Shown here: positions 7,258 through 42,183 of the stretch, in pieces
Position numbering within the stretch: position 1 is the first letter of the stretch
Layout of the letters: each line of letters begins with the position of its first letter
Assembly (NCBI GenBank): GCA_020697715.1
Contig: JAEHCO010000001.1
Coordinates: 2,222 to 66,221 of the forward strand
Direction: 5' to 3'
Length of the DNA: 64,000 nucleotides
DNA from: Methanobacteriota archaeon
GTDB lineage: Archaea > Thermoplasmatota > Thermoplasmata > SG8-5 > JAGLSY01
Translations under genes and position numbers: made by a program
Notes under the pieces: generated by a model
Told to the model about the DNA's origin: nothing
The model's database searches: none
The model's input: only the letters and a program-made list of their open reading frames with translations

Positions 7258-7369
7258 GGGCCCATGGCTTAGCCTGGTTATAGCGCCCGGCTGATATGGA
7301 ACAAACCTCAAAAAAGGGTTTGTTCTCTCCGATACCGGGATGTCTCGAGTTCAAATCTCGTTGGGCCCA
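7258..7369 (+). tRNA. tRNA-Ile (anticodon GAU) with 37-nt canonical intron (7297-7333) between positions 37/38
   Basis: GGGCCCA/TGGGCCC acceptor stem, D-arm GCTT…TAGC, anticodon stem CCCGG/CCGGG with loop CTGATA-[intron]-A, T-loop TTCAAAT, discriminator A; intron contains 9-bp helix GAACAAACC/GGTTTGTTC. Confidence 0.75.
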
Positions 7370-15738: not shown

Positions 15739-15743
15739 TTAAA

Positions 15744-18047: not shown

Positions 18048-18051
18048 CTCC

Positions 18052-20025: not shown

Positions 20026-20101
20026 TTAAACATCTCCGATTCCTTCCTATCTATCTCTCTCGGGACTCCCGAAAAAAAGAAAAGGAAGGGCACTAGCTAA
20101 G

Positions 20102-23089
20102 CTAGGCCCTTATTCTTCTGAACACTGCTGTTGCGACAGCTGTGATCGAGAACAATGAAGCGATCAGCAAGAACGAGGGGAACGGTGTCTCCTGTTCAGT
20201 ACCGGGAGTGACAGTATCCTCATCAACATCTAGTATACCGTCTCCATCATCGTCGTCATCGTCTACGTCTGGGATGCCGTCATTGTCATCATCAGTGTCG
20301 GTGGCATCTGGAATACCGTCGCCGTCAGTATCGATTTCAACGGTGCCAGGGCCAGTGACCTCATCCAGATTAATGACATTTATCGGGATGGACTGTGTTC
20401 CATTCTTGTAGTCCTTCATATTGCCACCATCCGAATACTGACCGAATGCTATCACACTTACTGTGTACTCTTTGTCTGCGTCTATGTCCGCTGCCTGGAA
20501 CGAGAAGGTCGCTTCTCCGTTTGAATCTGTTGTTGCGAACAATGGCGAGACTATGGGACCTTCAGGGTCCACCTGTATCACCACATTCATTCCAGATAAT
20601 GGTTCATAATCATTACCATTCTTGGTCACAGTCGCAGTAACACTTGTCAAACCAGGTGCATCAGCTGCATCCTTATCATCCACCACATCAGGGTTGGCTT
20701 CCAGCTGTACTGCAAGGAAGTCCACACCTTCTGGATATGCGGTCATCAAGGTCAGTTTATTAGGTGCATCGTCGTATCCTTCGATCTCCGCACTCTTGAT
20801 CTCAATAAGAATACCTGAACCGTTCTTGTAAAGATCTGGGTACAATAATTCATCGTTTGGAACATATGGTGCTGTGAAAGTGGTTCTCAATTTCCCAGTT
20901 GAATCTGTTGTTCCATTGTATACGGACAGTGTTCCATTGGTCACTGCGAGTTCGACAAATGCGTTCTTGACTGGCTCTCTTGTAAGAGATCCATCAGCGT
21001 TCTTCGTGATCCCTGTAATAAGTACATCTACATCGGCAGTTGCATTAGATTCGATAGCTGATACTGTGTTAACGAATCTGGCATTCAACCACTTGTTTGA
21101 TGGTGGTCTCAGTTCAAGGATGGATCTCCAGTTGTATATGGAACCTGATGATCCTGTTACCCAGCCTGTGAACCTGTCTGCACGGTAAGCTTCGATATTG
21201 GTCCTGAAGTAGAGAACATCGTATGGCAGATCGTAAGCAATTGCCGCCTGAGCATCCAATATAAGGTTAAGCCTAGCATCTTCATCTCCAGTTTCCCTTG
21301 CATTATCGATTATCTCATCGAAACTGGTATTGGAATATCCTGGGTAATTCTGACCTGCTGCTGCTGTGCTGGAATGGAAGAAAGCATACAAGAAATCTGT
21401 TGGATCGCTACCAATGCTCCATCCAAGAATGTACATGTCAAAGTCCCTTTGATCAATATGGTTGACAATGGTTCCGAAATCCATAGCAATGGACTCTGCA
21501 TATATACCAACATCCTGCATCTGCTTGGCTATCATCAATCCAGCCTGTGCTCTTATCGGATCATAATCTGCAGGTGGTGTATATATCTCTATTTTGCCAC
21601 CATCTGCATTGCCGATGTTCGAGCCATCTGGGTTAAGCCACCAGTTACCATTTCCTGGCTCGGCTCCTGGATTGGTCAATTTATATCCAGCCCTTGAAAG
21701 AATATCTTTGGACTCCTCTGGGTCAAATGCATACCTTGGAATTGTATCATTGTACCATGTACTGATAGATGATACAGGTCCATCTCCAGGTATACCGAAG
21801 TTCTGAAGCAGTCTCTGAACAATGGTCTGCTTATCGATACAGTGAGCTATGGCCTTCCTTAGTGGCATACCTACATCATTACCATTATCGTCGTATCCGA
21901 AGGATCTCTTGTTTGGTCTCATATTGTAAGCCAAGTAGAAGAAACCTTTCTCAGCAGATTGCTTGACACCAAGATCTGGCTCGTTCATTATTTCCTGAAC
22001 GAAGGTTGGTGGAATGGACCATGCAATGTAGTCCACATCATTGTTCTTCAGAGCCAATACGGCCTGTTCTGCTGTCTTGTAGATCTTGAAAACCATTGCC
22101 TCGATGGTGGGTTGTTTTGCAACTTCATTGACATCGTAGGTAGGGTTCCAGCCCTCTTTGTAAAAGTGCTCCCTGTATGTGGTGATCTTTGAGCTAACAC
22201 CGACATTCCATGAGGAGAACTTGAATACTCCACTGCCAACTGGGTTTGGGTTGTCCCAAGCCAAAGCTGCTCCGGAATCCCATGCTTGTGGGCTGTCCTT
22301 GGTGTAGCCTGGATCTGACCAGATGAGCATTCCATCCTGTGGCTGTCCTGATTCTGTGTATCCCCATACGTGGTATGGGATTAAGAAAGCTGATAGTGTG
22401 TTCCTGAAAAAGTCAGCGAAAGGTGTCTGGAGCTCGAACCTCAGTCCGGCCTGCAGTTTATCCGCACTCTCGTAAACCTTCTGGATGTGTAGGTAATTTG
22501 TGTCAGTGTGGTTTGTGCCGGCTTCTCCGCCCTTGTCCATCAAACACTTGACACTGGATACCCAGTCTGGAAGCTGTGACTGAACGTGATATGCGAACAT
22601 AACATCTCTAATGGTCATCTGTGTTCCATCATGCCATGTCACGTCTGTAAAATCGTAGAAGATCGTTGTCTCAGCGAGACCTGTCATTCCAGGATCCCAG
22701 TCTTCCTCTGGTGTGAATCCAAAGATGCCCTGGTTCATGTCGTCCCAGCCCCAGGCGTCATCCGCGCCCTTGCCGGTACCATTGGCAGAGCCAACGGCTA
22801 TGTAAGGGATTATCTCATCCGTGTTTGGATCGGAGTTAAGTGGACCCTCATAGAGATATCCAATAACATTCCATGTCCAGACATCCCCTGCAACTAGGGG
22901 ATTCAGGGTCTTGAGATCATCCTGCATAGCTACTTTCAAAATATATGTGTCATCTTCACTCTGTCTTGTACCCGCATCTGGGGCCGCAACAGCTACTGGG
23001 AAAGCGCTTAATACCATCACAAATACAAATGCTATTGATAAAGCTGCTATCCCCTTGCTCCTAATACTATCATTTTTGACCATTGTCAT
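20102..23089 (-). CDS. ABC transporter substrate-binding protein (family 5, peptide/nickel type) with C-terminal Ca-binding repeat and TM anchor
   Basis: 995 aa; signal peptide, SBP family-5 core, C-terminal DTDGDGIPD…DDDNDGIPD thrombospondin-type-3-like repeats then hydrophobic anchor. Confidence 0.8.
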   Translation of the reverse strand: MTMVKNDSIRSKGIAALSIAFVFVMVLSAFPVAVAAPDAGTRQSEDDTYILKVAMQDDLKTLNPLVAGDVWTWNVIGYLYEGPLNSDPNTDEIIPYIAVGSANGTGKGADDAWGWDDMNQGIFGFTPEEDWDPGMTGLAETTIFYDFTDVTWHDGTQMTIRDVMFAYHVQSQLPDWVSSVKCLMDKGGEAGTNHTDTNYLHIQKVYESADKLQAGLRFELQTPFADFFRNTLSAFLIPYHVWGYTESGQPQDGMLIWSDPGYTKDSPQAWDSGAALAWDNPNPVGSGVFKFSSWNVGVSSKITTYREHFYKEGWNPTYDVNEVAKQPTIEAMVFKIYKTAEQAVLALKNNDVDYIAWSIPPTFVQEIMNEPDLGVKQSAEKGFFYLAYNMRPNKRSFGYDDNGNDVGMPLRKAIAHCIDKQTIVQRLLQNFGIPGDGPVSSISTWYNDTIPRYAFDPEESKDILSRAGYKLTNPGAEPGNGNWWLNPDGSNIGNADGGKIEIYTPPADYDPIRAQAGLMIAKQMQDVGIYAESIAMDFGTIVNHIDQRDFDMYILGWSIGSDPTDFLYAFFHSSTAAAGQNYPGYSNTSFDEIIDNARETGDEDARLNLILDAQAAIAYDLPYDVLYFRTNIEAYRADRFTGWVTGSSGSIYNWRSILELRPPSNKWLNARFVNTVSAIESNATADVDVLITGITKNADGSLTREPVKNAFVELAVTNGTLSVYNGTTDSTGKLRTTFTAPYVPNDELLYPDLYKNGSGILIEIKSAEIEGYDDAPNKLTLMTAYPEGVDFLAVQLEANPDVVDDKDAADAPGLTSVTATVTKNGNDYEPLSGMNVVIQVDPEGPIVSPLFATTDSNGEATFSFQAADIDADKEYTVSVIAFGQYSDGGNMKDYKNGTQSIPINVINLDEVTGPGTVEIDTDGDGIPDATDTDDDNDGIPDVDDDDDDGDGILDVDEDTVTPGTEQETPFPSFLLIASLFSITAVATAVFRRIRA

Positions 23090-26001: not shown

Positions 26002-26089
26002 CATCACATTATCATACGATGAGTAATGTTGTTAAGGCTGCGACAAAAAGTTAACACCCCGTTAACTTTTTGATTTTTAGATATCTGGC

Positions 26090-28591
26090 TCAGCCCAATC
26101 TATCATACGGATTCTGGGATTCCACATACGAAACAGTACCCTCTTCGGATGGTTTCCCTTCTTCTATTTTTAGGTGACCGCTCTCATCATATTCGTCCTC
26201 ATCTGGCTCAGGCATGTCTGGATCCCTATCATCAGGATGTTGAGACTCAGGCTTTCGTCCAAAACCAAGGCCAGCCAGAACTCCCAGGATACCGGCTATC
26301 GCAGGTGCGATGACCGCCCAAAGAGGGATCTTCTCCTTTTCCACAACCCGAACTTCATCCGTGCCATTGAAGGTCAGAGTAGGCGCATCCAGGAAGTCCG
26401 CCACACCATCACCGTCCGAGTCCGGGGGAAGGGACGTGGCATCAAGAGGATCGGAGCCTGCCAGTATCTCGACGATATCACGCCAGCCATCGCCATCCGA
26501 GTCAGAATCCTCCAATCCATCGGTGAGGTTCAGGGTCTGATTTTGATAAATGACATTGGTATTGTTGCTATACTCGGTCAGATTGGACCAGACCGTGCCA
26601 TTGCTGTACTCGGTCAAGTTCGCCCACTGGGTGCCATTATTGTATTCTGTGAGATTCGCCCACTCTGTGGAGTTGGTGAAGTCTGTGAGATTGTTGTATA
26701 TCTGCTTCTCGATGAAATCTGGATCCATGAAATCCGCCACACCGTCGAGGTCAGCGTCGCCTGGCATGCTGGAATTGTCGGTCGTGTTCGTGCCGGATAT
26801 CACCTCTATTATGTCCAGCCAGCCATCATCGTCATCATCGGTATCTGCGTTATTGCCGATTCCATCGCCATCCGTGTCCAGGCTTTCGAGTGGATCAAAG
26901 GGGAAGATGTCATTGGTGTCCGGAACACCATCATCATCATCATCCAGATCCACAGAATCTGCCAGTCCATCACCGTCAAAGTCAGCAGAGATGGCAAGTG
27001 TGAATTGGGTTGATACCGCATTCCCATTATTGTCTGTGGCTGTCACTTCAACTTCGTAGCTTCCTGCCATATCTGGCCAGCCAGATAGGACCCCGCTGGC
27101 TGAGTCCATCCACAGCCAACTTGCATTGGTATTGATGCTCCATGTATGTGTGTCAGCTCCATCAACATCTGTAAGATCATAATCATTTGAATATAGCTGA
27201 CCAGCTTGGCCAGCGAAGATGTTGGCTGTGTCGATTGTCTGAAGGTCGTTGGTGTTCAGGGCATTGATGATGACATTTGTAGTGAAGGAACGGCCATATC
27301 CGTCTGTCGTGTTGTAAGTGAATCCATCGGTGCCAGTCCAGTTGGCATCAGGCAGGACCGACAGATTATTGCCAGAAAAGGAAACCTGGCAATTTGTTCC
27401 ATTTGAAAAGCCAGTTATCGTGAACTCGTTCTGGTCTGGTGCGTCATTGGCCAGCACGTTGATTATCGTGCTGGTGTCTTCTGTAATATTGAACTCGTCC
27501 CACAATGGGGTGTAGCCCCAGACTATCTTATAGATATTCAGCTCGCTTGGACCATTGTTAATACCTGTGGCAATATACTTATCGTCAGGACTCCATACCG
27601 CACACTGGGTGGTCAAGCCATAGGACACAGTAGAAATCAAAGTTAAGGTTATTCCATCGAAGAAAAAGAGGTAGCACTCTGGATTTCCTCCTGAGACACC
27701 AGCGACAATTAGGTAACGACCGTCAGAGCTCCAGTCTGCTGATAAGAGCGAGTTTGCTGAATTGAAGCTATCGATTATAGTTAGGGTATTACCATTAAAC
27801 ATCAGAACACTACACTCATATCCACCAGCTCCAGTGTCGCCTGAGATAGCCAAGTATTGACCATCAGGCCTCCAATTGACATCCTCTACATGAGCACCGT
27901 GTGAAAATTGAGCGACCATTATCAATGAAGATCCTGTAAAAAAGAGAACACGCACCTCAACAGCTGCATTGGTATCACCGCCCATTGCAAGATAGTTGCC
28001 ATCAGGGGACCAGTGTACGTCATTTACATCAGCACCGTGGTTGTAGCTGTCTAACTGGAAAAGGCTGGTACCATCAAAAATGAGGATCCAGACTAAATTG
28101 TCCACGCCACAGGAGGCAATATAATTGCCGTTTGGGCTCCAAGATACAGATAATACATCTGCCGAAGTAATGAAGCTGTCTATTTGGGTCAACATTGCTC
28201 CATTGAAAGCGAACACTCTAACACTATCATCCATACCACCCACAGCAATGTACTGGCCGTCTGGGCTCCAGTCGACAGCGTAACAGCTGAAGGCAAACGA
28301 ATAGCTGTCTATCTCATAGAGGTTATTGTTTAGTAAACGCAATACCCTAAGATTATCGCTTAGGCTTGCGATGGCCACATATTGGCCATCGGGGCTCCAT
28401 GCAATATCTCTAATCCCGTCATTATCATCATATTGCTCCAACAAGAATTTATCGGCGTATTGGGTCTCGAAAGTGGGACTTACTGCCTCTTGAGGCTGTG
28501 CTCCTTTTACATTGTCCAGCATCATAAACAATGAGCTGAAAACTAACATTAAACTTATCATCAATACGGTAATTTTCCTCATATCCTTCAC
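26090..28591 (-). CDS. Large membrane-anchored surface protein: beta-propeller head, Ig-like domain, Ca-binding TSP3-like repeats, NxT sequon stalk, TM, acidic tail
   Basis: 833 aa; signal peptide; seven WSPDGQY(I/V)A-type repeats; DFDGDGLADSVDLDDDDDG…; 12-aa repeats EWANLTEYNNGT; C-terminal hydrophobic helix and Asp/Glu/Pro tail. Confidence 0.75.
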   Translation of the reverse strand: MKDMRKITVLMISLMLVFSSLFMMLDNVKGAQPQEAVSPTFETQYADKFLLEQYDDNDGIRDIAWSPDGQYVAIASLSDNLRVLRLLNNNLYEIDSYSFAFSCYAVDWSPDGQYIAVGGMDDSVRVFAFNGAMLTQIDSFITSADVLSVSWSPNGNYIASCGVDNLVWILIFDGTSLFQLDSYNHGADVNDVHWSPDGNYLAMGGDTNAAVEVRVLFFTGSSLIMVAQFSHGAHVEDVNWRPDGQYLAISGDTGAGGYECSVLMFNGNTLTIIDSFNSANSLLSADWSSDGRYLIVAGVSGGNPECYLFFFDGITLTLISTVSYGLTTQCAVWSPDDKYIATGINNGPSELNIYKIVWGYTPLWDEFNITEDTSTIINVLANDAPDQNEFTITGFSNGTNCQVSFSGNNLSVLPDANWTGTDGFTYNTTDGYGRSFTTNVIINALNTNDLQTIDTANIFAGQAGQLYSNDYDLTDVDGADTHTWSINTNASWLWMDSASGVLSGWPDMAGSYEVEVTATDNNGNAVSTQFTLAISADFDGDGLADSVDLDDDDDGVPDTNDIFPFDPLESLDTDGDGIGNNADTDDDDDGWLDIIEVISGTNTTDNSSMPGDADLDGVADFMDPDFIEKQIYNNLTDFTNSTEWANLTEYNNGTQWANLTEYSNGTVWSNLTEYSNNTNVIYQNQTLNLTDGLEDSDSDGDGWRDIVEILAGSDPLDATSLPPDSDGDGVADFLDAPTLTFNGTDEVRVVEKEKIPLWAVIAPAIAGILGVLAGLGFGRKPESQHPDDRDPDMPEPDEDEYDESGHLKIEEGKPSEEGTVSYVESQNPYDRLG

Positions 28592-28648
28592 CCTGATTAT
28601 CTCTAAAAGGTAATCGGGCGGCGGGATAATAACATTTCCGTAATATTG

Positions 28649-31600
28649 TTAAGGAGTGTCTGGCTCCTCAGTTTCTTCAGCCTCTACCTCAGGTTCAGCC
28701 TCTGGTTCCGGTGTCTCTTCCGCAACCTCTGGTTTCCTTCCGCTTACTCCACGCTCTGCGAAGAAAACAGCCAGTGCTCCAAAGACTATGGCTGCAATCA
28801 ATGCTCCATAGGCCCATGTCGGGGTTTCTGAGACTGTTTCGGTTATTGTGACAGGGTCGGTAGTTTCATTGTTCCAAATGGTGTTGTTGTGATACTCGGG
28901 AATTGTGGTGTTGTGATACTCAGGAACCGTCTCATTGTTCCATATCGTGTTATTACTGTATTCAGTAACATTGTCCCAGACGGTTTGATTCACTGTCTGG
29001 TTATCCCATATTGTTTGATTGTTATATTCTATCACAATCAGAAAATCAGGATCCATATAGTCTGCCACGGTGTCATTATCAACATCTGATGGTATGGATG
29101 TATTGTCCAGTGGATCAAATCCACCAGCGATCTCTATGGCATCGTTCCAACCGTCCCAGTCATCGTCCAGATCTGCATTGTTACCGATTCCATCACCGTC
29201 TGTATCTGTATCCTCAGTTGGGTCTAGTGGGAGATCATCAGAGGTATCTGGAGTGCCATCATTATCATCATCTAGATCGGTTTTATCTGGATCCCCATCT
29301 CTGTCGGAATCCAGATTAACTGTTAGAATGAATGTTTGAGTATCGATTCCACCGTTACCATCGTCCACGATGATCTCAACATTGTAAGTGCCATCCTCAG
29401 TAGTGCTGGGTGTTCCGCTTATAATTCCACTGCTATCTATTGTAAGCCAACCAGTTGCGTTTCCTGCCAAGCTCCAGGTCGTTGATGGATCATCTGTGGA
29501 ATCATAATCCACCTCGTACAGTGCACCAGTGTTTGTAATTTCAATATCATTCGTTGTAATAATTGGTTCTGAATTTATCACTATGAGAGTGTAATTGAAG
29601 TATCCTTCTCGATTGATTGAATCTATTGCTGTGATATTGGCATAATATGTGCCCACATCTAAATTCTCTGGAGTTCCTGTCAGAACTCCAGAGTCTGAAA
29701 CAGACAACCAGCCAGTCATATTTGTATCAAGGTTCCAGTCAGTGATGGTGTTAAAGCCTGGATGAGGTTGAGGAGTACAATCAAGATCGATTACATAGAT
29801 CGAATCCTCCAAACATGTGTCCATAGCTGTAACTTGTGTAGTGGTCACTATTAGGGATATCGGCGTCAAGAAAGGATATGTTACCGTCTCCATAATGCCC
29901 CAGATATCAGTGAAATCCCAGCCTGTAAAAGTTAATTCCTGCTTCATCTCGATAGTGGTCTTGCCGATCCCGCTGGCAGTGCTCGGATTGCCGGATGTAT
30001 TGGTATCCCAGAAGCAGTTCATGGTGGAGTTAAGATCAATTCCTGCAAAGCCGCCAATTGAACTAGCTCCACTAGCATTTCCTGTGCTGTAGGAATTCAT
30101 AATAAAGCCAATAACATTATTTTGTCCAACAAAGCCACCGATCATACTACCGCTACTGGCATTACCAGTGCTATAGGAGTTCGTGATATCACCGCCATTA
30201 CATCCTACGAAGCCACCAACATTACCTGCAGTTCCGTTGGCACTGCTAGTACTGTAGCAGTTCGTGATAGCACCAATATTATATCCTACGAAGCCACCGA
30301 TCCACTGAACTCCGCTGATGACACCACCAGTGCTGTAGCAGTTCGTGATGGAGCCGTCATTATTATATCCTGCAAAACCACCAACATAATTTCCACTTCC
30401 AATGGCACTGGCACTAGCATCGCCAGAGCTATAGCAGTTTGAAATGGTGGCGCCGGGAGCATTTCGACCTACAAAACCACCAACATAATCACTAATTCCA
30501 AATATCCCACTAGCACTTGCACTGCCAGTACTGTAGCAATTCATTATAGAATCAGCATTCTGGCCAACGAAACCTCCAATATATAATTCGTACCCTATGG
30601 CATTCCCAATACTGTAGCAGTTTGTGATGGGGCCATCGTTCTGGCCAACGAAACCTCCTATCTGGATCGTACCGCTGGCACTGTCTGTGCTATAGGAGTT
30701 GGAAATATTGCCAGCATTACTTCCGATGAAACCACCTATATTACTATTGCCAGATGCACTGCCCTGGCAGTATGAATTGGTGATTGTGTTCGTATTCGCT
30801 CCGGCGAAGCCACCAACATAGGTTCCCCCGTTAGTGTTTCCGGTTGAATAGCAGTCGTCAATATTATTCTCATTGATTCCCACAAAACCACCTACATTAT
30901 CACCACTGCCTGTAACCATCCCAGTTGAATAACTGGAAGTGATCGGACCATGGTTCCAGCCCACAAAACCTCCGAATTTGTTACTTGTCGAATTTACTAG
31001 TCCCGTACTATAACAAATATCAATTATGTGACCAAAGGTGCTGTATCCCATGAAGCCGCCAATAGTTCCAGCCCCCGAAACATTACCTGTACTGTAACTG
31101 TTGGTTATTGAGCCCCCATTTCCACCAGATCCGGCAAAGCCCCCACTGTATGAGCCTGAAACATCCCCAGTGCTGTAGCAGTATGAAATGTCAGTATTAG
31201 TAGCCATATTGCCGATAAAACCGCCAGTTGATTGTGGGCCTGATACAAGACCTGTGGCATAGCAGTTGGTTATTTCTCTCGATGAATGGAATCCAGTAAA
31301 TCCCCCGGCATTATTACCGATGGCAGTAGCATTGCCAGTTGCATAGCAATTATTAATTGTGCTTTGACTTGTACCGACAAATCCTCCAACACGATCACCT
31401 GTTCCAGTTGCATCACCTGTACTAAAACAATTAACGATTATTCCATTGAAACCACTATCATGTCCAATAAAGCCACCGACATCATCTCGCCCATCGGCTG
31501 AGCCAGTGCTGTAACAGTTAGTTAATTGACTGTCATCATTCAATCCAATAAACCCACCAATCTCATCAGATGTACCAATTGCTGTTGCTTCGCTGTGGCT

Positions 31601-32359
31601 GTCAGAAACCGTACCATAATTTACTCCTAAGAGCCCTCCAACCTGATTGGAGCCCGAAGCGATACCAATACTACTGAGGTTTTGCAATGAGCCAGCACTG
31701 AGCCCGATCAAAACACCAATATAGACATTGCCAGTGGATGTGCCGTTGGAATTACAATCACTTATGATTGATGAACCACTTGAGGAACCAAGCAAGAGCC
31801 CTGCATAGCTGGTATTTGTATTTACTGAACCCTGACAGGAGATCCCCGTAATGATCCCTGAAGCACTACCGGCTAAACCTCCAACAGTATGATTACCTTT
31901 TATGTTAAGGCCAATGAAGATGATGTCCCTGATCTCGCTGTTTGGACCGGCATGACCAAAAAGTCCGACATAGCGTTGAGAGGAACGGTTGATGAAAAGG
32001 TCATTAATACTGTAGCCCTGGCCATCTAAGGAACCTTGAAAATCATCGACCCAATTACCAATTGGATCAAAACCCTCGAAGGCAGAACCATTTAAGTTCC
32101 ATGTTGAGGTCGCGCTGGCATCGATATCATTCATCAGAACATAATGGGCATTCAGATCCAGCTCCATTTCCTGAAGCTGGTTCACATTTGTTACCTGATA
32201 TGGATCTCCAGGAGTTCCGACACCCCCGCCTGAGAACAATGGGGCAGGAACTATCTCCATTCCCTCAACATCCGTAGTCATGTCCAGCATCACGAATGAT
32301 GAGCTGAAGATCATAGCTAAACTTATCAATAATGTAATAGATTTTTTCATATCCTTCAC
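28649..32359 (-). CDS. Giant surface protein with GLUG-motif repeat array, Ig-like domains, TSP3-like Ca-binding repeats, NxT sequon stalk, TM anchor
   Basis: 1236 aa; signal peptide; more than 20 repeats of VGGFVGxNxGxITNCYSTG type; C-terminal module paralogous to 26090-28591 and 32416-35610. Confidence 0.75.
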   Translation of the reverse strand: MKDMKKSITLLISLAMIFSSSFVMLDMTTDVEGMEIVPAPLFSGGGVGTPGDPYQVTNVNQLQEMELDLNAHYVLMNDIDASATSTWNLNGSAFEGFDPIGNWVDDFQGSLDGQGYSINDLFINRSSQRYVGLFGHAGPNSEIRDIIFIGLNIKGNHTVGGLAGSASGIITGISCQGSVNTNTSYAGLLLGSSSGSSIISDCNSNGTSTGNVYIGVLIGLSAGSLQNLSSIGIASGSNQVGGLLGVNYGTVSDSHSEATAIGTSDEIGGFIGLNDDSQLTNCYSTGSADGRDDVGGFIGHDSGFNGIIVNCFSTGDATGTGDRVGGFVGTSQSTINNCYATGNATAIGNNAGGFTGFHSSREITNCYATGLVSGPQSTGGFIGNMATNTDISYCYSTGDVSGSYSGGFAGSGGNGGSITNSYSTGNVSGAGTIGGFMGYSTFGHIIDICYSTGLVNSTSNKFGGFVGWNHGPITSSYSTGMVTGSGDNVGGFVGINENNIDDCYSTGNTNGGTYVGGFAGANTNTITNSYCQGSASGNSNIGGFIGSNAGNISNSYSTDSASGTIQIGGFVGQNDGPITNCYSIGNAIGYELYIGGFVGQNADSIMNCYSTGSASASGIFGISDYVGGFVGRNAPGATISNCYSSGDASASAIGSGNYVGGFAGYNNDGSITNCYSTGGVISGVQWIGGFVGYNIGAITNCYSTSSANGTAGNVGGFVGCNGGDITNSYSTGNASSGSMIGGFVGQNNVIGFIMNSYSTGNASGASSIGGFAGIDLNSTMNCFWDTNTSGNPSTASGIGKTTIEMKQELTFTGWDFTDIWGIMETVTYPFLTPISLIVTTTQVTAMDTCLEDSIYVIDLDCTPQPHPGFNTITDWNLDTNMTGWLSVSDSGVLTGTPENLDVGTYYANITAIDSINREGYFNYTLIVINSEPIITTNDIEITNTGALYEVDYDSTDDPSTTWSLAGNATGWLTIDSSGIISGTPSTTEDGTYNVEIIVDDGNGGIDTQTFILTVNLDSDRDGDPDKTDLDDDNDGTPDTSDDLPLDPTEDTDTDGDGIGNNADLDDDWDGWNDAIEIAGGFDPLDNTSIPSDVDNDTVADYMDPDFLIVIEYNNQTIWDNQTVNQTVWDNVTEYSNNTIWNNETVPEYHNTTIPEYHNNTIWNNETTDPVTITETVSETPTWAYGALIAAIVFGALAVFFAERGVSGRKPEVAEETPEPEAEPEVEAEETEEPDTP

Positions 32360-32415
32360 CCGGCTTCCTCTGAATGGGAATCGGGTGGCAAGATAATAAC
32401 ATTTCCGTAATATTG

Positions 32416-35400
32416 TTAAGAAATGTCTGGCTCCCCTTGCCCTTCAGCCTCAACCTCAATTTCAGCATCTGGCTCTGGAGATCCTTCCACACCCTCCGGC
32501 TTTCCACCACTTCCACCTCTGGTGAATCCAATAACAGCCAGCACACCCATAACGACAGCCGCGATGACCGCGCCCCAGGCCCATGCCGGGGTCTCGATGA
32601 CCGTGTCCTGTGTGGATGGATCGGCGGTGCCATTATTCCAAACAGTTGTATTATGATATTCTGGAATTGTGTTATTGGCCCATTCGGTCGTGTTGTGGTA
32701 TTCTGGAATTGTCTCATTGTTCCATATTGTTTGATTGTGATACTCTGGAACTGTCTCATTGTTCCAGATGGTCTGATTGTTGTACTCTGGAACTGTCTCA
32801 TTGTTCCAGATGGTCTGATTGTTGTACTCTGTGACAATGAGGAAATCAGAATCCATGAAATCCGCTATGCCGTCATTGTCATCGTCTGGTGGAAGATCAG
32901 TGTCATCCAATGGGTCAAATCCACCTGCAATTTCGACTGCATCGTCCCAGTTATCATTGTCATCATCATCATCCACCGAATCGTCAATTCCATCGCCATC
33001 ATTATCTGATACCATTGTCGGATCAAGTGGGAAGTCATCAGAGGTATCTGGAGTGCCGTCATTGTCATCGTCCAGGTCTGTGGTGTCCGGTTGACCGTCA
33101 TTGTCTGTATCCAGATCCACAGTAAGGGTGAATATCCGGGTGTCATTGGCACCGTTCCCATCATCAACTGTGACCTCGACATTGTAGATACCTGCCTGCG
33201 CATTGTTGGGTGTTCCGGACAATATTCCGTCATTGTCTATTGAAAGCCAGCCTGTGACATTACCGGACAGGTTCCAGGTCGTGGATGGGTCATCTGTGGA
33301 ATCATAATCGACCGAGTACAATGCTCCAGTGTTGGTGCTCGGAACATCTGGGGTTGTTATACTGGGGCCCATGTTCTCCACATCGAAGGTGTAATTATAG
33401 AAGCCTTGGTGGCCCACAGGATCCGTGGCCGTGATATTTGCATAGTATGTGCCTACATCCACGTTCAAAGGAGTTCCAGATATTACTCCAAATGAGGATA
33501 TGGACAGCCAGCCTGTGGCATCGGTTTCCAAGCCCCATTGCATCATGCCAGATCCAGGAAGAGGTTGAAGGGCTGAATCAAAAACGATCATGTAATTTGA
33601 ATCTTCAATAGCCGTGTCCATCATGGTCACTTGCCCTGTCGAGATAATTGTGGAGAACGGAGTCAGGTATGGGTATGAAGTGGTCTCCATAATGCCCCAG
33701 ACATTTGTGAAGTTCCATGGCGGGTTGAATGTCGCTTGCTGCTTCATCTCAGCAGTGGTCTTACCAGTTGCACCAGTAAGTCCGCCAGCGCCGATTCCTA
33801 TTCCTGTTACAGAAGTGTCGGTATCCCAAAAACAATCTATGATAGCGCCAGAATTGTTATATCCGGCAAAGCCACCCGAATTGAGATTACCGATTGCCCT
33901 ACCTGTGCTGTAACAATTCTTTATCGTGCCAATGCCCCATACATATCCTGTGAATCCACCAACCCGGTCATTACCAATAGCATTTCCCATGCTGTAGCAG
34001 TTCGCGATGATACCGTGGTTCTGTCCTGAAAAACCACCAACATATTCAATTGTTCCAATAGAGCTCCCAGTACTGTAGCAGGCAGTGATCGATCCAACTT
34101 CATTGATACCCACAAAACCACCAACATAACTATCTGTTCCAGTTGCACCCCCTGTGCTGTAGCTTGCCGTTATCGGTCCTTCGTTCCATCCTACAAAACC
34201 ACCAATATACATATGTCCACTGGCACTACCTGTGCTGTAGCAATTTGTGATCGTGCCGACATTGGTCATAAACCCCGCGAAGCCCCCAACATAATCAAAA
34301 ATTCCTGTGGCACTGCCAGTGCTGTAGCAATTTGTGACCTGGCTATTATCAATATATCCAACGAAACCACCAACATACATATCTCCATTTACAATACCGG
34401 TGCTGTATGAGTTTATGATCGTGCCGCCAATATTAAATCCAACGAAGCCGCCGACATAATGATCGATCGATGTGGCATCTCCTGTGCTGTAGCAGTTAGA
34501 GGCGGTATTGCCATTAAGACCGATGAAGCCGCCGACATTGTTAGCACCGCTGGCATCTCCTGTGCTGTAGCAGTTAGAGACGGGATTGCCATTAAGACCG
34601 ATGAAGCCACCGACATGATCATCACCACTGGCATTGCCAGTACTGTAGCAGTTAGAGACGAGATTGTTATTAAGACCGATGAAGCCACCATAATAATCTC
34701 CCGATGCAAAAGAGATGGCATTGCCGGTGCTGTAGCAGTTTGTTATAGTGCCACTGTTACTTCCTGTGAATCCTCCTGCATAATCATCGACCCCATTGGC
34801 ATCTCCCGTACTATAGCAATTTATTATGTCTGCCTGATTTTGGCCTACAAAGCCTCCTGTATACTCAACTGCGGTTGACGTGCCAGTACTGTAGCAATTG
34901 GAGATATTACCTACAAAATTAAGTCCTACAAATCCACCAGCGGTCCATGAGATACCATTTACAGAACTGGTACTGTAGCAGTAAGTGATAGTGCCACCAT
35001 TATTTGTTCCAACAAGCCCGCCAACATCAAAGATTCCAGTTACGTATCCTGTGCTGTAACAGTCAGTGATCGTGCCCATATTTCTTGCAACCAAGCCTCC
35101 AACAGTATCTTGGCCATCTATATCTGAATTGTTCAGGCCAATGCCAGTTAAGCTGGCTGTTTCGCTGATAATGCCAAAGAGGCCAACTTGATCTGTGGTG
35201 GAACGGTTTATTATCAAATTAATTATTTCAAAGCCCTGGCCATCCAGAGAGCCATTGAACTTCGATGTGGTATTACCAATTGGTGTAAACCCTGCGCCAG
35301 AATCCCAGATATTGGTAATTGTGGCATCGATATCATTGCCCAATACGTAACTTGCATTCATGTCCAAGCGTATGTAATACAAATCAAGAACATCCTCCAC

Positions 35401-35610
35401 AATGTAAGGGTTGCCAATACTACCATCTCCACCACCGAAAGCTCCTCCGGCAAGTGGGACAGGGCCGGGAACAATTTCCTCACCCTCTACATTCGCGGTC
35501 ATATCCAGCATCACAAAAAGTGAGCTGAGAACTAGCATAGAACTGATAATTAATGTGGCTGTTTTCTTCATGATATCATTTCCCCTATCAATGTGAGGGA
35601 AATGCACCAT
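32416..35610 (-). CDS. Giant surface protein, paralog of 28649-32359 (GLUG repeats, Ig-like, TSP3-like repeats, sequon stalk, TM anchor)
   Basis: 1064 aa; same architecture and near-identical C-terminal module; downstream flank ATAATAACATTTCCGTAATATTGTTAAG duplicated after both paralogs. Confidence 0.75.
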   Translation of the reverse strand: MVHFPHIDRGNDIMKKTATLIISSMLVLSSLFVMLDMTANVEGEEIVPGPVPLAGGAFGGGDGSIGNPYIVEDVLDLYYIRLDMNASYVLGNDIDATITNIWDSGAGFTPIGNTTSKFNGSLDGQGFEIINLIINRSTTDQVGLFGIISETASLTGIGLNNSDIDGQDTVGGLVARNMGTITDCYSTGYVTGIFDVGGLVGTNNGGTITYCYSTSSVNGISWTAGGFVGLNFVGNISNCYSTGTSTAVEYTGGFVGQNQADIINCYSTGDANGVDDYAGGFTGSNSGTITNCYSTGNAISFASGDYYGGFIGLNNNLVSNCYSTGNASGDDHVGGFIGLNGNPVSNCYSTGDASGANNVGGFIGLNGNTASNCYSTGDATSIDHYVGGFVGFNIGGTIINSYSTGIVNGDMYVGGFVGYIDNSQVTNCYSTGSATGIFDYVGGFAGFMTNVGTITNCYSTGSASGHMYIGGFVGWNEGPITASYSTGGATGTDSYVGGFVGINEVGSITACYSTGSSIGTIEYVGGFSGQNHGIIANCYSMGNAIGNDRVGGFTGYVWGIGTIKNCYSTGRAIGNLNSGGFAGYNNSGAIIDCFWDTDTSVTGIGIGAGGLTGATGKTTAEMKQQATFNPPWNFTNVWGIMETTSYPYLTPFSTIISTGQVTMMDTAIEDSNYMIVFDSALQPLPGSGMMQWGLETDATGWLSISSFGVISGTPLNVDVGTYYANITATDPVGHQGFYNYTFDVENMGPSITTPDVPSTNTGALYSVDYDSTDDPSTTWNLSGNVTGWLSIDNDGILSGTPNNAQAGIYNVEVTVDDGNGANDTRIFTLTVDLDTDNDGQPDTTDLDDDNDGTPDTSDDFPLDPTMVSDNDGDGIDDSVDDDDDNDNWDDAVEIAGGFDPLDDTDLPPDDDNDGIADFMDSDFLIVTEYNNQTIWNNETVPEYNNQTIWNNETVPEYHNQTIWNNETIPEYHNTTEWANNTIPEYHNTTVWNNGTADPSTQDTVIETPAWAWGAVIAAVVMGVLAVIGFTRGGSGGKPEGVEGSPEPDAEIEVEAEGQGEPDIS
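32657..32840 (-). repeat. In-frame 42-bp tandem repeat (about 4.4 copies, two identical) encoding 14-aa double-sequon units (PEYHNQTIWNNETV)
   Basis: Units start at 32657, 32699, 32741, 32783, 32825; 32741-32782 is identical to 32783-32824. Confidence 0.8.
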
Positions 35611-35642: not shown

Positions 35643-36680
35643 TTACAACAGCTTGCCCCACCTGGAAGGTTCCCTGCCCTTCCAGTTGCCCTTGTTGTAA
35701 GCATACCCGGCTATCAGCGGCAATGCGATGGTGGCCTCTGCCCAAACCATCTGCTCATGGTTGGTCTCTACTTTTCCCCATGAACTGGCTTCCTTCAGGG
35801 TGCTGCCGGATAATGCGCCATCGCGCTCGTCAGCCACTGTGATCTGTATCGCGTATTTGTGCATGCGGACATCCTCCAGGAGCTTGCCAGATGGGTCAAC
35901 TTCGACACCCAGGACAGTGTCCTGTACGAAGTTCTTGGGCACTCCGCCGCCTATCATGAAGATGCCGGATTGCTTGCTGGCTGTTACCAAGGCTACCAGT
36001 TCCCTGAAATCAGCGACCGAATCAATGCTCAGATGCAGATCCGGGTTCTGACGCTGGTGATCCAATAGACCGAATCCCGCACTGCAATCCGAGAAAGCTG
36101 GGCAGAAGATCGGAACATCCATCTTGTAGGCCGCGTGAATGACCGAGTCATCCACCTTCGGTCCCTGTTCATCCAGATACTTGCCCATCTCCTTGATGAA
36201 CTCGCGAGATGAATAGGGGCGCTTTTCGAGTTTGTCCGCTATCACTTTCACTGTCTGGTCGCACACGCGCAATTCTTCTTCATCTATGAACGTATCATAT
36301 ATTCTATCAATATGTAATTCGCGGAGATCATTGTCATCCACAAATGGTGTGCCGATGTAGTGCTTGAATCCAATGGCCTCGAAGAAATCCATGTCCACAA
36401 TTACCGCGCCAGTCGAGACAATTGCATCGATCATATTGTTCATTATCATGTCATGAACAATTTTCTTCAAACCTGCTGAGAAGAGGGAGCCGGACATACA
36501 AAGGATCACCTTGCAATCATGGTCAGCCAGCATCATGTCGTATATCTTGGCCGCGCGTGATAGATTGCGAGCCTGGAAAGCCATGCTGGACATCGACTCC
36601 ACGATATCTACAACGTCATGCTCTTTCATGTCATAATGCTCTATCAGGTCTTTGAGAAGGTCTTCTTTTTTCAGGTTCAT
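35643..36680 (-). CDS. dys: Deoxyhypusine synthase
   Basis: 345 aa; DHS motifs including MIGGGVPKNF and NAD-binding segment ILCMSGSLFSAGL. Confidence 0.85.
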   Translation of the reverse strand: MNLKKEDLLKDLIEHYDMKEHDVVDIVESMSSMAFQARNLSRAAKIYDMMLADHDCKVILCMSGSLFSAGLKKIVHDMIMNNMIDAIVSTGAVIVDMDFFEAIGFKHYIGTPFVDDNDLRELHIDRIYDTFIDEEELRVCDQTVKVIADKLEKRPYSSREFIKEMGKYLDEQGPKVDDSVIHAAYKMDVPIFCPAFSDCSAGFGLLDHQRQNPDLHLSIDSVADFRELVALVTASKQSGIFMIGGGVPKNFVQDTVLGVEVDPSGKLLEDVRMHKYAIQITVADERDGALSGSTLKEASSWGKVETNHEQMVWAEATIALPLIAGYAYNKGNWKGREPSRWGKLL

Positions 36681-40493: not shown

Positions 40494-41552
40494 CTAGAAA
40501 GCGTTGATAATCGTGTCCAGATCTTCCTTCGTCAATCCCGGATGCACCGGCAGGCTCAGCACCTCTTCCGCGGCCTTATCCGAGTTATCCAAGCCTTTGC
40601 TTCCATAATCAGATAGCAGGTCGAACTTGTGCAGGGATTTGGGGTAATACACACCTGATCCGACACCATTGTCCCTGAGCTTCTGGATGACATTGTCCCT
40701 ATCCTGCACTCTTATCGTGTACTGGTGGAAAACATGGCGGTAGCCATCTGGTACGTATGGAGTGACGATGCCTTTTGCTTTCAATCCTTCTGTTAAGTAA
40801 GCGGCATTTGCGATCCTGGCCTTGGTCATTTCTTCAAGTTTGGCAAGCTGGACAACGCCGATGGAGGCCGCGATGTCGGTCATTCTGAAATTGTATCCCA
40901 GGAATTCGTACACATAGCGGTCGGCCATGCCGTGGTTCCTGAACTTCTTGGCCAGGTCGTTTATCTCATCATCATTTGTCGTGATGATGCCGCCCTCGCC
41001 GGTTGTCATGTTCTTTGTTGGATAGAAGCTGAAACTGGCTGCATCTCCCATGGAGCCAGTGGTCTTCCCGTTCATGGCAGCTCCGTGAGCCTGGCATGAG
41101 TCTTCGAGAATCTTTAGACCATGCTGAACACCGAGCTTGTTTATCTTCTCCATGTCAGCTGACAGTCCGAAAATATGGACTGGCATGATGGCCTTTGTTC
41201 TTGGAGTTATCTTCTCAGCTATTGAATCAGGAGAGATATTGAAGGTCTTTGGATCTATATCCGCGAAGACCGGGGTCGCTCCCGTGAATAAGATGGATGT
41301 CGCACTGGCCACGAAGCTGAAAGGAGTTGTTATGACCTCATCGCCCTTGCCGATGCCCATTGATAATAGGGCGAGGTGAAGGGCCTGGGTTCCGTTTCCC
41401 ACCGCGATGCCGTGTTTCGCTCCGCAGTACTCGGCGAATTTTTCTTCCAATTCGGCGACTTTCTTTCCCTGAGCCAGCATACCGGATTGCATAACGGCTT
41501 TCACTGCCTCGAACTCGTCATCCCCTATCTGGGGGCTTGCTACGTTTATCAT
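40494..41552 (-). CDS. DegT/DnrJ/EryC1/StrS-family PLP-dependent sugar aminotransferase (WbpE-like)
   Basis: 352 aa; PLP-lysine region and family motifs (MPVHIFG, SFSFYPTKNMTTGEGG). Confidence 0.85.
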   Translation of the reverse strand: MINVASPQIGDDEFEAVKAVMQSGMLAQGKKVAELEEKFAEYCGAKHGIAVGNGTQALHLALLSMGIGKGDEVITTPFSFVASATSILFTGATPVFADIDPKTFNISPDSIAEKITPRTKAIMPVHIFGLSADMEKINKLGVQHGLKILEDSCQAHGAAMNGKTTGSMGDAASFSFYPTKNMTTGEGGIITTNDDEINDLAKKFRNHGMADRYVYEFLGYNFRMTDIAASIGVVQLAKLEEMTKARIANAAYLTEGLKAKGIVTPYVPDGYRHVFHQYTIRVQDRDNVIQKLRDNGVGSGVYYPKSLHKFDLLSDYGSKGLDNSDKAAEEVLSLPVHPGLTKEDLDTIINAF

Positions 41553-41553
41553 A

Positions 41554-42183
41554 TTACAATCTCCTGTGATCTTTTGGTGTTTCGCCTATTTGTCTAGCTG
41601 GCACACCTGCCATGATGGCGAAGTCCGGTACATCCTTCGTAACTACCGCGCCAGCTCCAATAACCGTATCCCTGCCGATCTTCACTCCTGGCAGGATCGT
41701 CGTATTGGCTCCTATCCTGGCATGGTCACCGACTCTCGCTCCTATCAAATTGATATCACCGCGACCCATGTACTTGTCATTCGTGAAGCACGCGCGTGGT
41801 CCGATAAAGACATCGTCGCCGATTATCGTGTTCGTTGGAATGTAAACACCTGTCTGGATGGATGTGCGATTCCCGATCTTGCACTGGTCCTCGATGACCG
41901 TGCTGGTACCGATTATAACCTGGTCGCCGATCTCTGTTTCTTCCCTTATGAGAGCGTGATGGCCAGTCTGGCATCTATCACCCATTTTCACATCCGTGTA
42001 GATGATCGTGTAATCCCTTATAACGCAGTTCTCTCCAAGTATCGAGCCGCGGGTCTCATTCTCGCGACCAGATATCATCAGTTCTTTGTCATGCTTTCCT
42101 GGATGGCCGATAACAGCAGTTTCTGCCACATATGTTCCATCACCTAGCTTGGTATCTCCAAGTATCCTTCCCATATTCATCAC
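41554..42183 (-). CDS. Hexapeptide-repeat sugar N-acetyltransferase (WbpD/PglD-like)
   Basis: 209 aa; left-handed beta-helix hexapeptide repeats across most of the protein; 1-nt gap and 4-nt overlap with neighbours. Confidence 0.8.
   Translation of the reverse strand: MMNMGRILGDTKLGDGTYVAETAVIGHPGKHDKELMISGRENETRGSILGENCVIRDYTIIYTDVKMGDRCQTGHHALIREETEIGDQVIIGTSTVIEDQCKIGNRTSIQTGVYIPTNTIIGDDVFIGPRACFTNDKYMGRGDINLIGARVGDHARIGANTTILPGVKIGRDTVIGAGAVVTKDVPDFAIMAGVPARQIGETPKDHRRL

What the first reader, a model, noticed from the sequence alone, without database searches (positions are those of the whole stretch)
26090..35610. Three tandem giant surface proteins with swapped head domains on a shared C-terminal anchoring module
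One beta-propeller-headed and two GLUG-repeat-headed proteins share the same C-terminal cassette: thrombospondin-type-3-like Ca-binding Asp repeats, an NxT-sequon repeat stalk, a TM helix and an acidic tail. The 3' flanking DNA is also duplicated after both GLUG paralogs. This indicates domain shuffling or duplication producing a variable cell-surface repertoire.
Basis: partly seen in the sequence, partly recalled or inferred. Interest (0 to 1): 0.7.

Follow-up and report, generated by a model that had tools for sequence, protein, structure and literature searches.

The report
Archaeal surface-protein paralogs sharing one anchor
Three neighbouring genes of an uncultured Thermoplasmata archaeon encode membrane-anchored, sugar-coated surface proteins with different outer 'heads' on the same stalk-and-anchor module; this is a real but fairly ordinary modular adhesin-like family.

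Summary
Genes A (26090-28582), B (28649-32350) and C (32416-35571), all on the minus strand, share three parts:
- an N-terminal signal peptide;
- a C-terminal cassette: He_PIG Ig domain, Cys-free thrombospondin-type-3-like Asp repeats, a sequon-dense stalk, a TM helix and an acidic tail;
- a promoter-like sequence upstream.

A carries a 7-bladed WD40 propeller. B and C carry GLUG beta-solenoids, which a confident model places with the non-catalytic beta-helix of IgA1 proteases.

The cassette aligns at non-acidic positions too, so it is not merely low-complexity sequence.

The genome is archaeal. Named relatives are Thermoplasmata or Thermoplasmatota.

In a syntenic relative (L088), the same slot between the DHS and FolD genes holds two GLUG genes and no WD40 gene. 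WD40-headed homologues sit alone at other loci. Other contigs carry two or three tandem GLUG genes.

The anchor motif TETPxWAWGAxIAA…GFxRGG also occurs behind Laminin_G, PKD, Big_7 and cadherin-like heads.

The head swap is old and mosaic, not recent or local. A's cassette groups with the WD40-type cassettes, while its tail motif (…PYDRLG) is shared with a GLUG-headed protein.

The most likely function is Ca2+-stiffened, N-glycosylated type I surface binding proteins. This is inferred, not shown.

It is a new member of a known kind, of modest interest.

The parts
26090..28582 (-). Gene A, 830 aa from the ATG at 28582. The ORF lister starts at GTG 28591; the public gene call (P0241, 811 aa) starts later and cuts off the signal peptide.
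   Evidence: N-terminal alignment with paralogs and relatives
27512..28462 (-). A head: 7-bladed WD40 beta-propeller (aa 41-357)
   Evidence: PF00400 95 bits; PDB 2ymu E 5e-48; seven WSPDGxY motifs; AF2 pLDDT >90
26987..27499 (-). A spacers: Big_9/cadherin-like Ig domain (aa 362-442) and He_PIG Ig domain (aa 448-532)
26378..26986 (-). A cassette: TSP3-like Asp repeats (aa 533-620), NxT sequon stalk (aa 623-690) and a second TSP3_bac-like unit (aa 691-735)
26093..26332 (-). A TM helix (aa about 751-775) and a 55-aa acidic cytoplasmic tail ending …SYVESQNPYDRLG
28649..32350 (-). Gene B, 1233 aa from the ATG at 32350: signal peptide, GLUG beta-solenoid (about 21 GG[FLV]xG turns), 2 He_PIG domains and the cassette
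28652..29563 (-). B cassette: last He_PIG domain, TSP3-like repeats, stalk (28841-29038), TM (28751-28822) and acidic tail
32416..35571 (-). Gene C, 1051 aa from the ATG at 35571 (the ORF and the public call P0121 start at 35610)
33637..35490 (-). C head: GLUG beta-solenoid (aa 28-645), including 78-84 nt tandem repeats that are 84-90% alike at 34444-34689
   Evidence: AF2 pLDDT 93; Foldseek hits to the IgA1-protease beta-helix; TRF
32419..33360 (-). C cassette: He_PIG, TSP3-like repeats (32857-33117), stalk built from 42-nt repeats (32617-32856), TM (32521-32592) and acidic tail (32419-32520)
28625..28650 (-). Conserved 26-mer AACAATATTACGGAAATGTTATTATC directly after the B stop codon and about 40 nt upstream of the A start; reads as a BRE/TATA-like promoter element
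32392..32417 (-). Identical 26-mer directly after the C stop codon, upstream of B
26044..26072 (.). Hairpin with flanking T/A runs between the convergent genes A and FolD; terminator-like end of the array

Best explanation
This is a tandem array of three paralogous type I membrane glycoproteins of a Thermoplasmata archaeon.

Each protein has the same layout:
- a Sec-type signal peptide;
- a ligand-binding head, either a 7-bladed WD40 propeller (A) or a GLUG beta-solenoid (B, C);
- Ig-like spacers;
- a Cys-free thrombospondin-type-3-like Asp-repeat segment that probably binds Ca2+;
- a disordered stalk packed with N-glycosylation sequons;
- a strongly conserved TM helix;
- an acidic cytoplasmic tail.

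The proteins most likely act as adhesin-like or receptor-like binders held away from the membrane on a glycan-shielded stalk. Each gene appears to have its own BRE/TATA-like promoter and GGTGA ribosome-binding site.

The family diversifies in four ways: tandem duplication, expansion of repeats inside the head and the stalk, gain and loss of genes at the locus, and occasional recombination that recombines head, cassette and tail.

Shown: the architecture, the homology, the fold class and the locus variability. Inferred: surface exposure, glycosylation, Ca2+ binding, adhesion and promoter function.
For: Architecture and homology:
- Domains and pairwise homology.
- Archaeal context (Topo VI, eRF1, DUF531, intron-bearing tRNA).
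- Named relatives are Thermoplasmata or Thermoplasmatota.

GLUG head:
- Modelled at pLDDT 93 as a beta-solenoid.
- Best PDB matches are the beta-helix of IgA1 proteases: 3n6z at E 1e-6, and 6xja and 7uvl at probability 1.0.
- No HExxH motif.

Other parts:
- WD40: 7 blades, with 2ymu at E 5e-48.
- The cassette profile hits the type 3 repeats of COMP and thrombospondin-1/-2, E 7e-5 to 1e-3. It also retrieves hundreds of PF02412/PF18884 proteins.
- Homologous cassettes in relatives pass the TSP3_bac cut-off.
- The stalk has 10-12 sequons per 90 aa (0 of 300 shuffles reach this) and is predicted disordered.

Comparative loci:
- Syntenic locus with 2 GLUG genes.
- Tandem arrays in other contigs.
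- WD40-headed homologues elsewhere.
- Anchor motif behind many head types.
- Mosaic tail shared with GLUG-headed P0365.

Topology and expression signals:
- P0361 has cytoplasmic zinc ribbons after a weak anchor-HMM match (E 8e-8). This supports a retained type I topology.
- Promoter-like elements are conserved across relatives.

Literature:
- GLUG proteins are proposed adhesins in Methanimicrococcus (PMC9723798).
- Thrombospondin genes are linked to adhesion in Poseidoniales (PMC6461757).
Against: - No ligand, expression, glycosylation or localisation data exist.
- TSP_3 and TSP3_bac Pfam models are below threshold on the three window proteins themselves.
- The TSP3 segment is modelled with low confidence, pLDDT about 55.
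- Adhesion is an inference by analogy.
- The unusually conserved TM segment could mean something other than a passive anchor.
Confidence: 0.72

Rival explanations
1. They are the cell's envelope (S-layer-like or glycocalyx) structural proteins, not adhesins. The stalk and TM helix would play the role of the SlaB or halobacterial S-layer anchor, and the heads would tile the surface.
For: The layout matches archaeal S-layer glycoproteins: signal peptide, glycosylated stalk and C-terminal TM anchor (PMC3387779). The TM segment is very highly conserved, which would suit lateral packing. The three genes are adjacent and each has its own promoter-like element.
Against: - No Pfam or NCBIfam S-layer model matches. 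The only trace is 10 bits against a cut-off of 600.
- Heads differ in fold within one array.
- Gene number and head type differ between close relatives.
- The heads are only about 40-54% identical to those of L088, while the neighbouring genes are 72-96% identical.
Confidence: 0.13
2. The conserved TETPxWAW motif, TM helix and basic cluster form a new C-terminal sorting signal that a sortase-like enzyme cleaves (as with PGF-CTERM and archaeosortase). The mature proteins would then be lipid- or wall-linked rather than TM-anchored.
For: - The layout is tripartite and conserved in 42 of 490 retrieved proteins, whatever the head.
- Some members have tails of only about 9-15 aa after the helix, for example P0371 and L087.
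Against: - No known CTERM sorting model matches.
- Most tails are 30-60 aa long.
- Tails carry conserved motifs of their own (…PYDRLG in A and P0365), or zinc-ribbon domains in P0361, whose anchor match is weak. Both point to a retained cytoplasmic tail.
- No archaeosortase-like gene was seen among the ORFs scanned; several shorter ORFs in the window were not scanned.
Confidence: 0.1
3. The GLUG proteins are surface-tethered enzymes (a protease or a polysaccharide depolymerase), not binders.
For: - The best fold matches are IgA1 proteases.
- Weaker matches are tailspike depolymerases, PL6 lyases and alginate epimerases.
- Many distant GLUG homologues carry Peptidase_M26_N.
Against: - B and C contain no M26 catalytic domain and no HExxH motif.
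- The matched region of the IgA1 protease is taken here, from prior knowledge and not checked, to be its non-catalytic beta-helix.
- Matches to the carbohydrate-acting enzymes have probability below 0.6 and TM-score of about 0.2.
Confidence: 0.05
4. The C-terminal resemblance is only Asp/Asn-rich low-complexity composition.
For: The region is rich in D, N, T and E, and is repetitive.
Against: - Composition-adjusted BLASTP gives E 6e-44 and 1e-25.
- W, Y, F, P and G columns are invariant.
- The He_PIG domain and the TM block are conserved.
- Homologues with the same order of parts occur in other genomes.
Confidence: 0.01

Closest known systems
GLUG-motif surface proteins (Pfam PF07581), including the beta-helix domain of M26 IgA1 proteases and the putative adhesin-like GLUG proteins of Methanimicrococcus blatticola (PMC9723798)
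   Same: B and C score 175-188 bits on PF07581. The model is a beta-solenoid whose best PDB matches are IgA1 protease structures (3n6z, 6xja, 7uvl). They are secreted, membrane-bound and multi-copy.
   Different: They have no M26 catalytic domain and no HExxH motif. The anchor is a C-terminal TM cassette with TSP3-like repeats and a sequon stalk. The host is Thermoplasmata.
Thrombospondin type 3 repeats (PF02412) and bacterial TSP3 repeats (PF18884); 'thrombospondin genes' reported in Poseidoniales (PMC6461757)
   Same: They carry DxDxDGxxDxxD units. The profile matches the type 3 repeats of COMP and TSP-1/-2. The segment is predicted as irregular coil without regular secondary structure. The implied role is Ca2+-dependent and extracellular.
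   Different: There are no cysteines or disulfides. The Pfam models are below threshold on the window proteins. There are only 3-6 units. The repeats are embedded in an archaeal type I membrane protein.
Archaeal S-layer glycoproteins and binding proteins with a glycosylated stalk and C-terminal TM anchor (Sulfolobales SlaB, halobacterial S-layer glycoprotein, crenarchaeal oligopeptide-binding proteins; PMC3387779)
   Same: They share a Sec signal peptide, a glycosylation-rich stalk just outside the membrane and a single C-terminal TM segment.
   Different: The stalk is N-sequon based (NxT every 7 residues) rather than Ser/Thr-rich. There is no homology to known S-layer families. The heads are interchangeable. 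No PGF-CTERM-type signal is present.
Prokaryotic secreted WD40 / beta-propeller proteins (for example Nostoc WD40 2ymu; TolB/PD40)
   Same: A has a bona fide 7-bladed WD40 propeller with very regular blades.
   Different: The propeller is exported and displayed on an Ig, TSP3, stalk and TM anchor that it shares with GLUG proteins.

Membership tests
GLUG motif proteins (PF07581) | Repeated GLUG motif scoring above the Pfam gathering cut-off | tested here: met
   B 187.7 bits and C 174.7 bits against a cut-off of 20.5
GLUG motif proteins (PF07581) | Beta-solenoid fold like the GLUG region of IgA1 proteases | tested here: met
   AF2 pLDDT 93; Foldseek 3n6z at E 1e-6, and 6xja and 7uvl at probability 1.0
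M26 IgA1-specific metalloproteases | Zn-metalloprotease catalytic domain with HExxH | tested here: not met
   No Peptidase_M26_C/N hit on B or C; no HExxH
WD40 repeat beta-propellers (PF00400) | WD40 repeats above the cut-off, forming a closed propeller | tested here: met
   95.2 bits against 27; 2ymu at E 5e-48; 7 blades, pLDDT >90
Thrombospondin type 3 / TSP3_bac repeats | Pfam PF02412 or PF18884 above the gathering cut-off | tested here: not met
   A: TSP3_bac 21.6 bits against 25. B: TSP_3 E 0.42. C: no hit. Homologous cassettes in relatives do pass: P0393 30.1, P0371 32.0, P0131 29.3, P0401 31.3 bits.
Thrombospondin type 3 / TSP3_bac repeats | Repeated DxDxDGxxDxxD Ca2+-binding consensus, alignable to solved type 3 repeats | tested here: met
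   3-6 motifs per protein; the profile hits COMP 3fby at 7e-5, TSP-1 1ux6 at 4e-4 and TSP-2 at about 1e-3
Thrombospondin type 3 / TSP3_bac repeats | Disulfide-bonded Cys pairs, as in the eukaryotic type | tested here: not met
   No Cys in any cassette; all Cys lie in the heads
Thrombospondin type 3 / TSP3_bac repeats | Ca2+ binding | not testable with these tools
   Needs ITC or a structure with Ca2+
Archaeosortase/exosortase C-terminal sorting signals (PGF-CTERM and relatives) | Match to a curated CTERM model; a short basic tail right after the helix | tested here: not met
   No CTERM model at E <= 10; tails in the window proteins are 34-55 aa and acidic
Archaeal S-layer glycoproteins | Homology to a known S-layer family | tested here: not met
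   No Pfam or NCBIfam S-layer hit; only a 10-bit trace on the TM region against a cut-off of 600
Archaeal S-layer glycoproteins | Signal peptide, glycosylated stalk and C-terminal membrane anchor | tested here: met
   glycosylation itself is not testable here
Archaeal S-layer glycoproteins | Most abundant envelope protein, forming a lattice | not testable with these tools
   Needs proteomics or cryo-ET

The most novel reading that the evidence does not exclude
The highly conserved block TETPxWAWGAxIAAxVxGxLA…GFxRGG(x)KPE, together with the sequon stalk, is a Thermoplasmata-specific surface-display module. It could be a new sorting or processing signal, or a TM oligomerisation and docking unit that ties many different heads into one glycoprotein coat linked to a cytoplasmic partner through the tail. 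On this reading the family would be the main organiser of the poorly understood cell envelope of these archaea.
Probability: 0.15. Interest if true: 0.6.

Novelty: new member of a known kind. Interest (0 to 1): 0.33.

Why it matters
Uncultured Thermoplasmatota are, as far as I know, common in marine and sediment habitats, and I know of little work on their cell surfaces. This locus gives a clean, alignable definition of an anchoring cassette: Ig spacer, Cys-free TSP3-like repeats, N-glycan stalk, conserved TM helix and acidic tail.

That cassette can be used to list the surface-displayed proteins of these genomes and to see which binding heads each lineage deploys (GLUG, WD40, PKD, lectin-like, cadherin-like).

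The work also flags that all three public gene calls start at a different codon from the one inferred here, and that two of them (A and B) cut into the signal peptide.

It does not reveal a new mechanism.

Tried and rejected
It gave no close relative.
- The metagenome scan with the stalk, TM and tail segment found nothing.
- The metagenome scan with Topo VI-B found one 2.4-kb contig, which was not used further.
- Exact-sequence look-ups of the window's Topo VI-B and of P0121 were not on record.
- The closest cassette hits of the first protein search lie on contigs of 1.4-3.7 kb, too short for context.
- A recent gene conversion between B and C was tested by third-codon-position identity and rejected: about 0.4-0.65 throughout.
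- A simple orthology (C = L088_G1, B = L088_G2) was rejected. Both heads match G1 best. By cassette, C is nearest G2 and B nearest G1.
- ARAGORN found no tRNA, although Rfam finds an intron-containing one.
- The sigma-70 promoter scan is at background level and does not apply to archaea.
- The profile search with the stalk and TM profile was dominated by proteins that match only the TSP3_bac-like unit. A local anchor HMM was needed to pick out true anchor carriers.
Full report
**What is there**

The region 26090-35610 holds three consecutive minus-strand ORFs: A (26090-28591), B (28649-32359) and C (32416-35610).

The three N-termini align with each other and with relatives (MKKTA…LSSLFVMLDM…VEG). 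A GGTGA motif lies 5 nt upstream. Together these point to the ATGs at 28582, 32350 and 35571 as the real starts. The proteins are then 830, 1233 and 1051 aa, which is large but not giant. The public gene calls start elsewhere: P0241 is 811 aa, P0122 is 1221 aa and P0121 is 1064 aa. Two of them (P0241 and P0122) cut into the signal peptide.

**Domains**

- A carries WD40 repeats (PF00400, 95 bits against a cut-off of 27), a Big_9/cadherin-like Ig domain and a He_PIG Ig domain.
- B and C carry the GLUG motif (188 and 175 bits against 20.5) and two He_PIG domains each.
- A's closest solved relative is a Nostoc WD40 protein, 2ymu, at E 5e-48.
- A has seven WSPDGxY blades.
- The full-length model of A shows these parts:
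  - a confident propeller (aa 41-357, pLDDT >90);
  - two Ig domains;
  - an irregular Asp-rich segment (pLDDT about 55);
  - a disordered stalk (pLDDT <40);
  - one TM helix (aa 754-774);
  - a disordered tail.

The head of C, modelled with 30 homologues, is a beta-solenoid at pLDDT 93 and pTM 0.91. Its best PDB matches are a Bacteroides 'putative IgA1 protease' (3n6z, E 1e-6) and the S. pneumoniae and G. haemolysans IgA1 proteases (probability 1.0). Tailspikes, lyases and epimerases match only weakly. None of the three proteins has an HExxH motif, so I read the head as a binding or scaffold domain, not an enzyme.

**Is the shared C-terminus real?**

Yes.
- Composition-adjusted BLASTP gives B vs C 55% over 905 aa, A vs B 47% over 256 aa (E 6e-44) and A vs C 37% over 369 aa (E 1e-25).
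- The three-way alignment has invariant W, Y, F, P and G columns, not only D and N.
- The parts come in the same order in all three:
  - He_PIG domain;
  - 3-6 DxDxDGxxD units;
  - a GFDPLD…DxDxDGxADFMDPDF unit;
  - a stalk of EYHNxTIWNNxTVP-type repeats;
  - the motif ETPxWAW followed by the TM helix;
  - a basic cluster RGGxGxKPE;
  - an acidic tail.
- Sequons reach 10-12 per 90 aa, which 0 of 300 shuffles reach.
- Within the window the cassette occurs only in these three genes.

**The TSP3 claim**

On the window proteins the Pfam models stay below threshold: TSP3_bac scores 21.6 against 25 bits on A, TSP_3 has E 0.42 on B, and C has no hit.

Three results still support the reading:
- A profile of the three cassettes hits the type 3 repeats of COMP (3fby, 7e-5), thrombospondin-1 (1ux6, 4e-4) and thrombospondin-2.
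- The profile retrieves hundreds of PF02412/PF18884 proteins.
- Homologous cassettes in relatives pass the TSP3_bac cut-off.

The cassettes contain no cysteine. They are therefore the Cys-free prokaryotic kind, and Ca2+ binding is inferred.

**The 'duplicated 3' flank'**

It is confirmed and reinterpreted. 28601-28750 vs 32368-32517 is 77% identical, and the similarity runs on into the next gene's signal-peptide codons (D14/D15).

An identical 26-mer, AACAATATTACGGAAATGTTATTATC, follows the stop codons of both C and B. None is expected by chance. Synonymous sites of B and C look close to saturation (third-position identity about 0.4-0.65), so this non-coding identity implies selection.

The element reads as a purine-rich BRE followed by a TATA-like TTATTAT, about 40 nt upstream of the ATG. 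Similar elements (…GTTAATTATGCC, …AATGTTATTACC) sit at the same distance upstream of homologues in other genomes. I infer that each gene has its own archaeal promoter. This is not shown.

A hairpin with flanking T and A runs at 26044-26072 closes the array against the convergent FolD gene.

**Organism and relatives**

The window is archaeal: Topo VI A and B, eRF1, DUF531, an HVO_0163-type HTH protein, SMC/ScpA and an intron-bearing tRNA. It comes from a 956-kb NCBI contig. Named relatives of the proteins are 'Thermoplasmata archaeon' or 'Thermoplasmatota'.

Locus L088 (GCA_030634565.1) is syntenic:
- Its gene order is DHS (96% aa identity), GLUG gene G1, GLUG gene G2, FolD (88%), DUF531 (84%), HTH (72%) and SBP (77%).
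- It has two GLUG genes and no WD40 gene.
- The GLUG proteins are only 48-55% identical to B and C.

Other loci:
- Full-length WD40-headed homologues of A (46% identity, same signal peptide and cassette) sit alone beside UbiA or FTR1 genes in other contigs.
- One contig has three tandem GLUG-cassette genes, two of them with 94% identical cassettes. Another has two.
- In a further relative (Topo VI-A 84% identical), a GLUG-cassette gene lies just after the Topo VI genes.

Gene number, head type and position therefore vary between related genomes.

**History of the head swap**

- In a cassette-only tree, A groups with the WD40-headed homologues (57-58% identity), not with its neighbours B and C (43-45%). 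The WD40-on-cassette architecture is therefore old, and A was added to this array or lost from L088.
- A's distinctive tail (GFGRKPESxHPD…SY[VA]E[ST]Q[NT]PYDRLG) is shared with the GLUG-headed protein P0365. The WD40-headed homologues lack it.
- Between the window and L088, heads and cassettes give different nearest neighbours.

The family is mosaic. Recombination has reshuffled head, cassette and tail more than once, but not recently in this window.

Length also evolves by internal repeats. The stalk of C has 42-nt repeats that are 91% alike, and its head has 78-84-nt GLUG repeats that are 84-90% alike. The number of GLUG turns ranges from 6 to 21 among paralogs.

**Family-wide view of the anchor**

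A profile of the stalk, TM helix and tail found 716 representatives at E <= 1e-3, but most of them match only the TSP3_bac-like unit.

A local HMM of the TETPxWAW, TM helix and basic-cluster block found the anchor in 42 of the 490 proteins retrieved. Their heads are:
- GLUG, alone or with Laminin_G_3, cadherin-like domains or an M26_N-like region;
- WD40;
- PKD;
- Big_7;
- cadherin-like domains only;
- He_PIG x7 followed, after a weak anchor match (E 8e-8), by cytoplasmic zinc ribbons.

This supports the idea of 'one anchor, many heads'. The zinc-ribbon member argues that the tail is cytoplasmic and retained. No curated CTERM sorting model matches.

**Interpretation**

The best reading is a paralog array of type I, N-glycosylated, probably Ca2+-stiffened surface binding proteins.

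The literature treats GLUG proteins of a gut methanogen as probable adhesins of unknown function (PMC9723798). It treats 'thrombospondin' genes of Poseidoniales as adhesion-related (PMC6461757). A signal peptide, glycosylated stalk and C-terminal TM anchor are a known archaeal way to anchor surface proteins (PMC3387779).

Rival readings are less supported but not all excluded: an S-layer-like structural role, a cleaved sorting signal, and a tethered enzyme. The low-complexity artefact is refuted.

**Verdict**

This is a new, unannotated member of a known kind of system, with one modestly new element: the conserved anchor cassette. Interest is about 0.33.

Noticed in passing
40494-43187 (-): DegT/DnrJ aminotransferase, hexapeptide acetyltransferase and GFO/IDH/MocA oxidoreductase lie in a row. 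This trio is typical of acetamido-sugar nucleotide synthesis. It sits 5 kb from the sequon-rich surface genes and may supply an N-glycan sugar.
   Followed up: no
13604-23089 (-): An oversized Opp/Dpp-type ABC system. The SBP_bac_5 binding protein is 995 aa and has a Big_1 domain. The two permeases are 657 and 767 aa with large extra-membrane inserts, one of them PQQ/beta-propeller-like (aa 225-483).
   Followed up: no
55592-59152 (+) and 59136-63953 (-): Two very large proteins: 1186 aa with multiple double zinc ribbons plus TPR, and 1605 aa with N-terminal zinc ribbons plus DUF11/DUF7619. One weak anchor-HMM match (P0361) and one GLUG/He_PIG homologue (P0191) also carry zinc-ribbon domains; those of P0361 lie after the putative TM helix.
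   Followed up: partly
7258-7369 (+): A 112-nt tRNA, presumably intron-containing, is found by Rfam at 49 bits but missed by ARAGORN.
   Followed up: no
35643-36680 (-): The deoxyhypusine synthase is about 60-68% identical to homologues in Ignavibacteria and Bacteroidota MAGs, and 96% identical to the one in the related archaeal contig L088. It is an unusually widely shared, bacterial-like version.
   Followed up: partly
28582, 32350, 35571 (start codons): The public gene calls for all three genes start at different codons from the ones inferred here: P0241 is 19 aa short, P0122 is 12 aa short and P0121 is 13 aa long. Signal peptides would therefore be missed or distorted in automated annotation.
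   Followed up: yes
L085 1547-7129: Two of three tandem GLUG paralogs in a related metagenome contig have 94% identical cassettes (their last 200 aa or so are identical) but different head lengths. This points to recent duplication or gene conversion in that lineage. The array is flanked by PemK and AbiEii toxin-type genes.
   Followed up: partly
44916-46472, 53368-54120, 54686-55438: Three KaiC-like ATPase genes lie in the window. One is fused to HHH and TPR domains.
   Followed up: no
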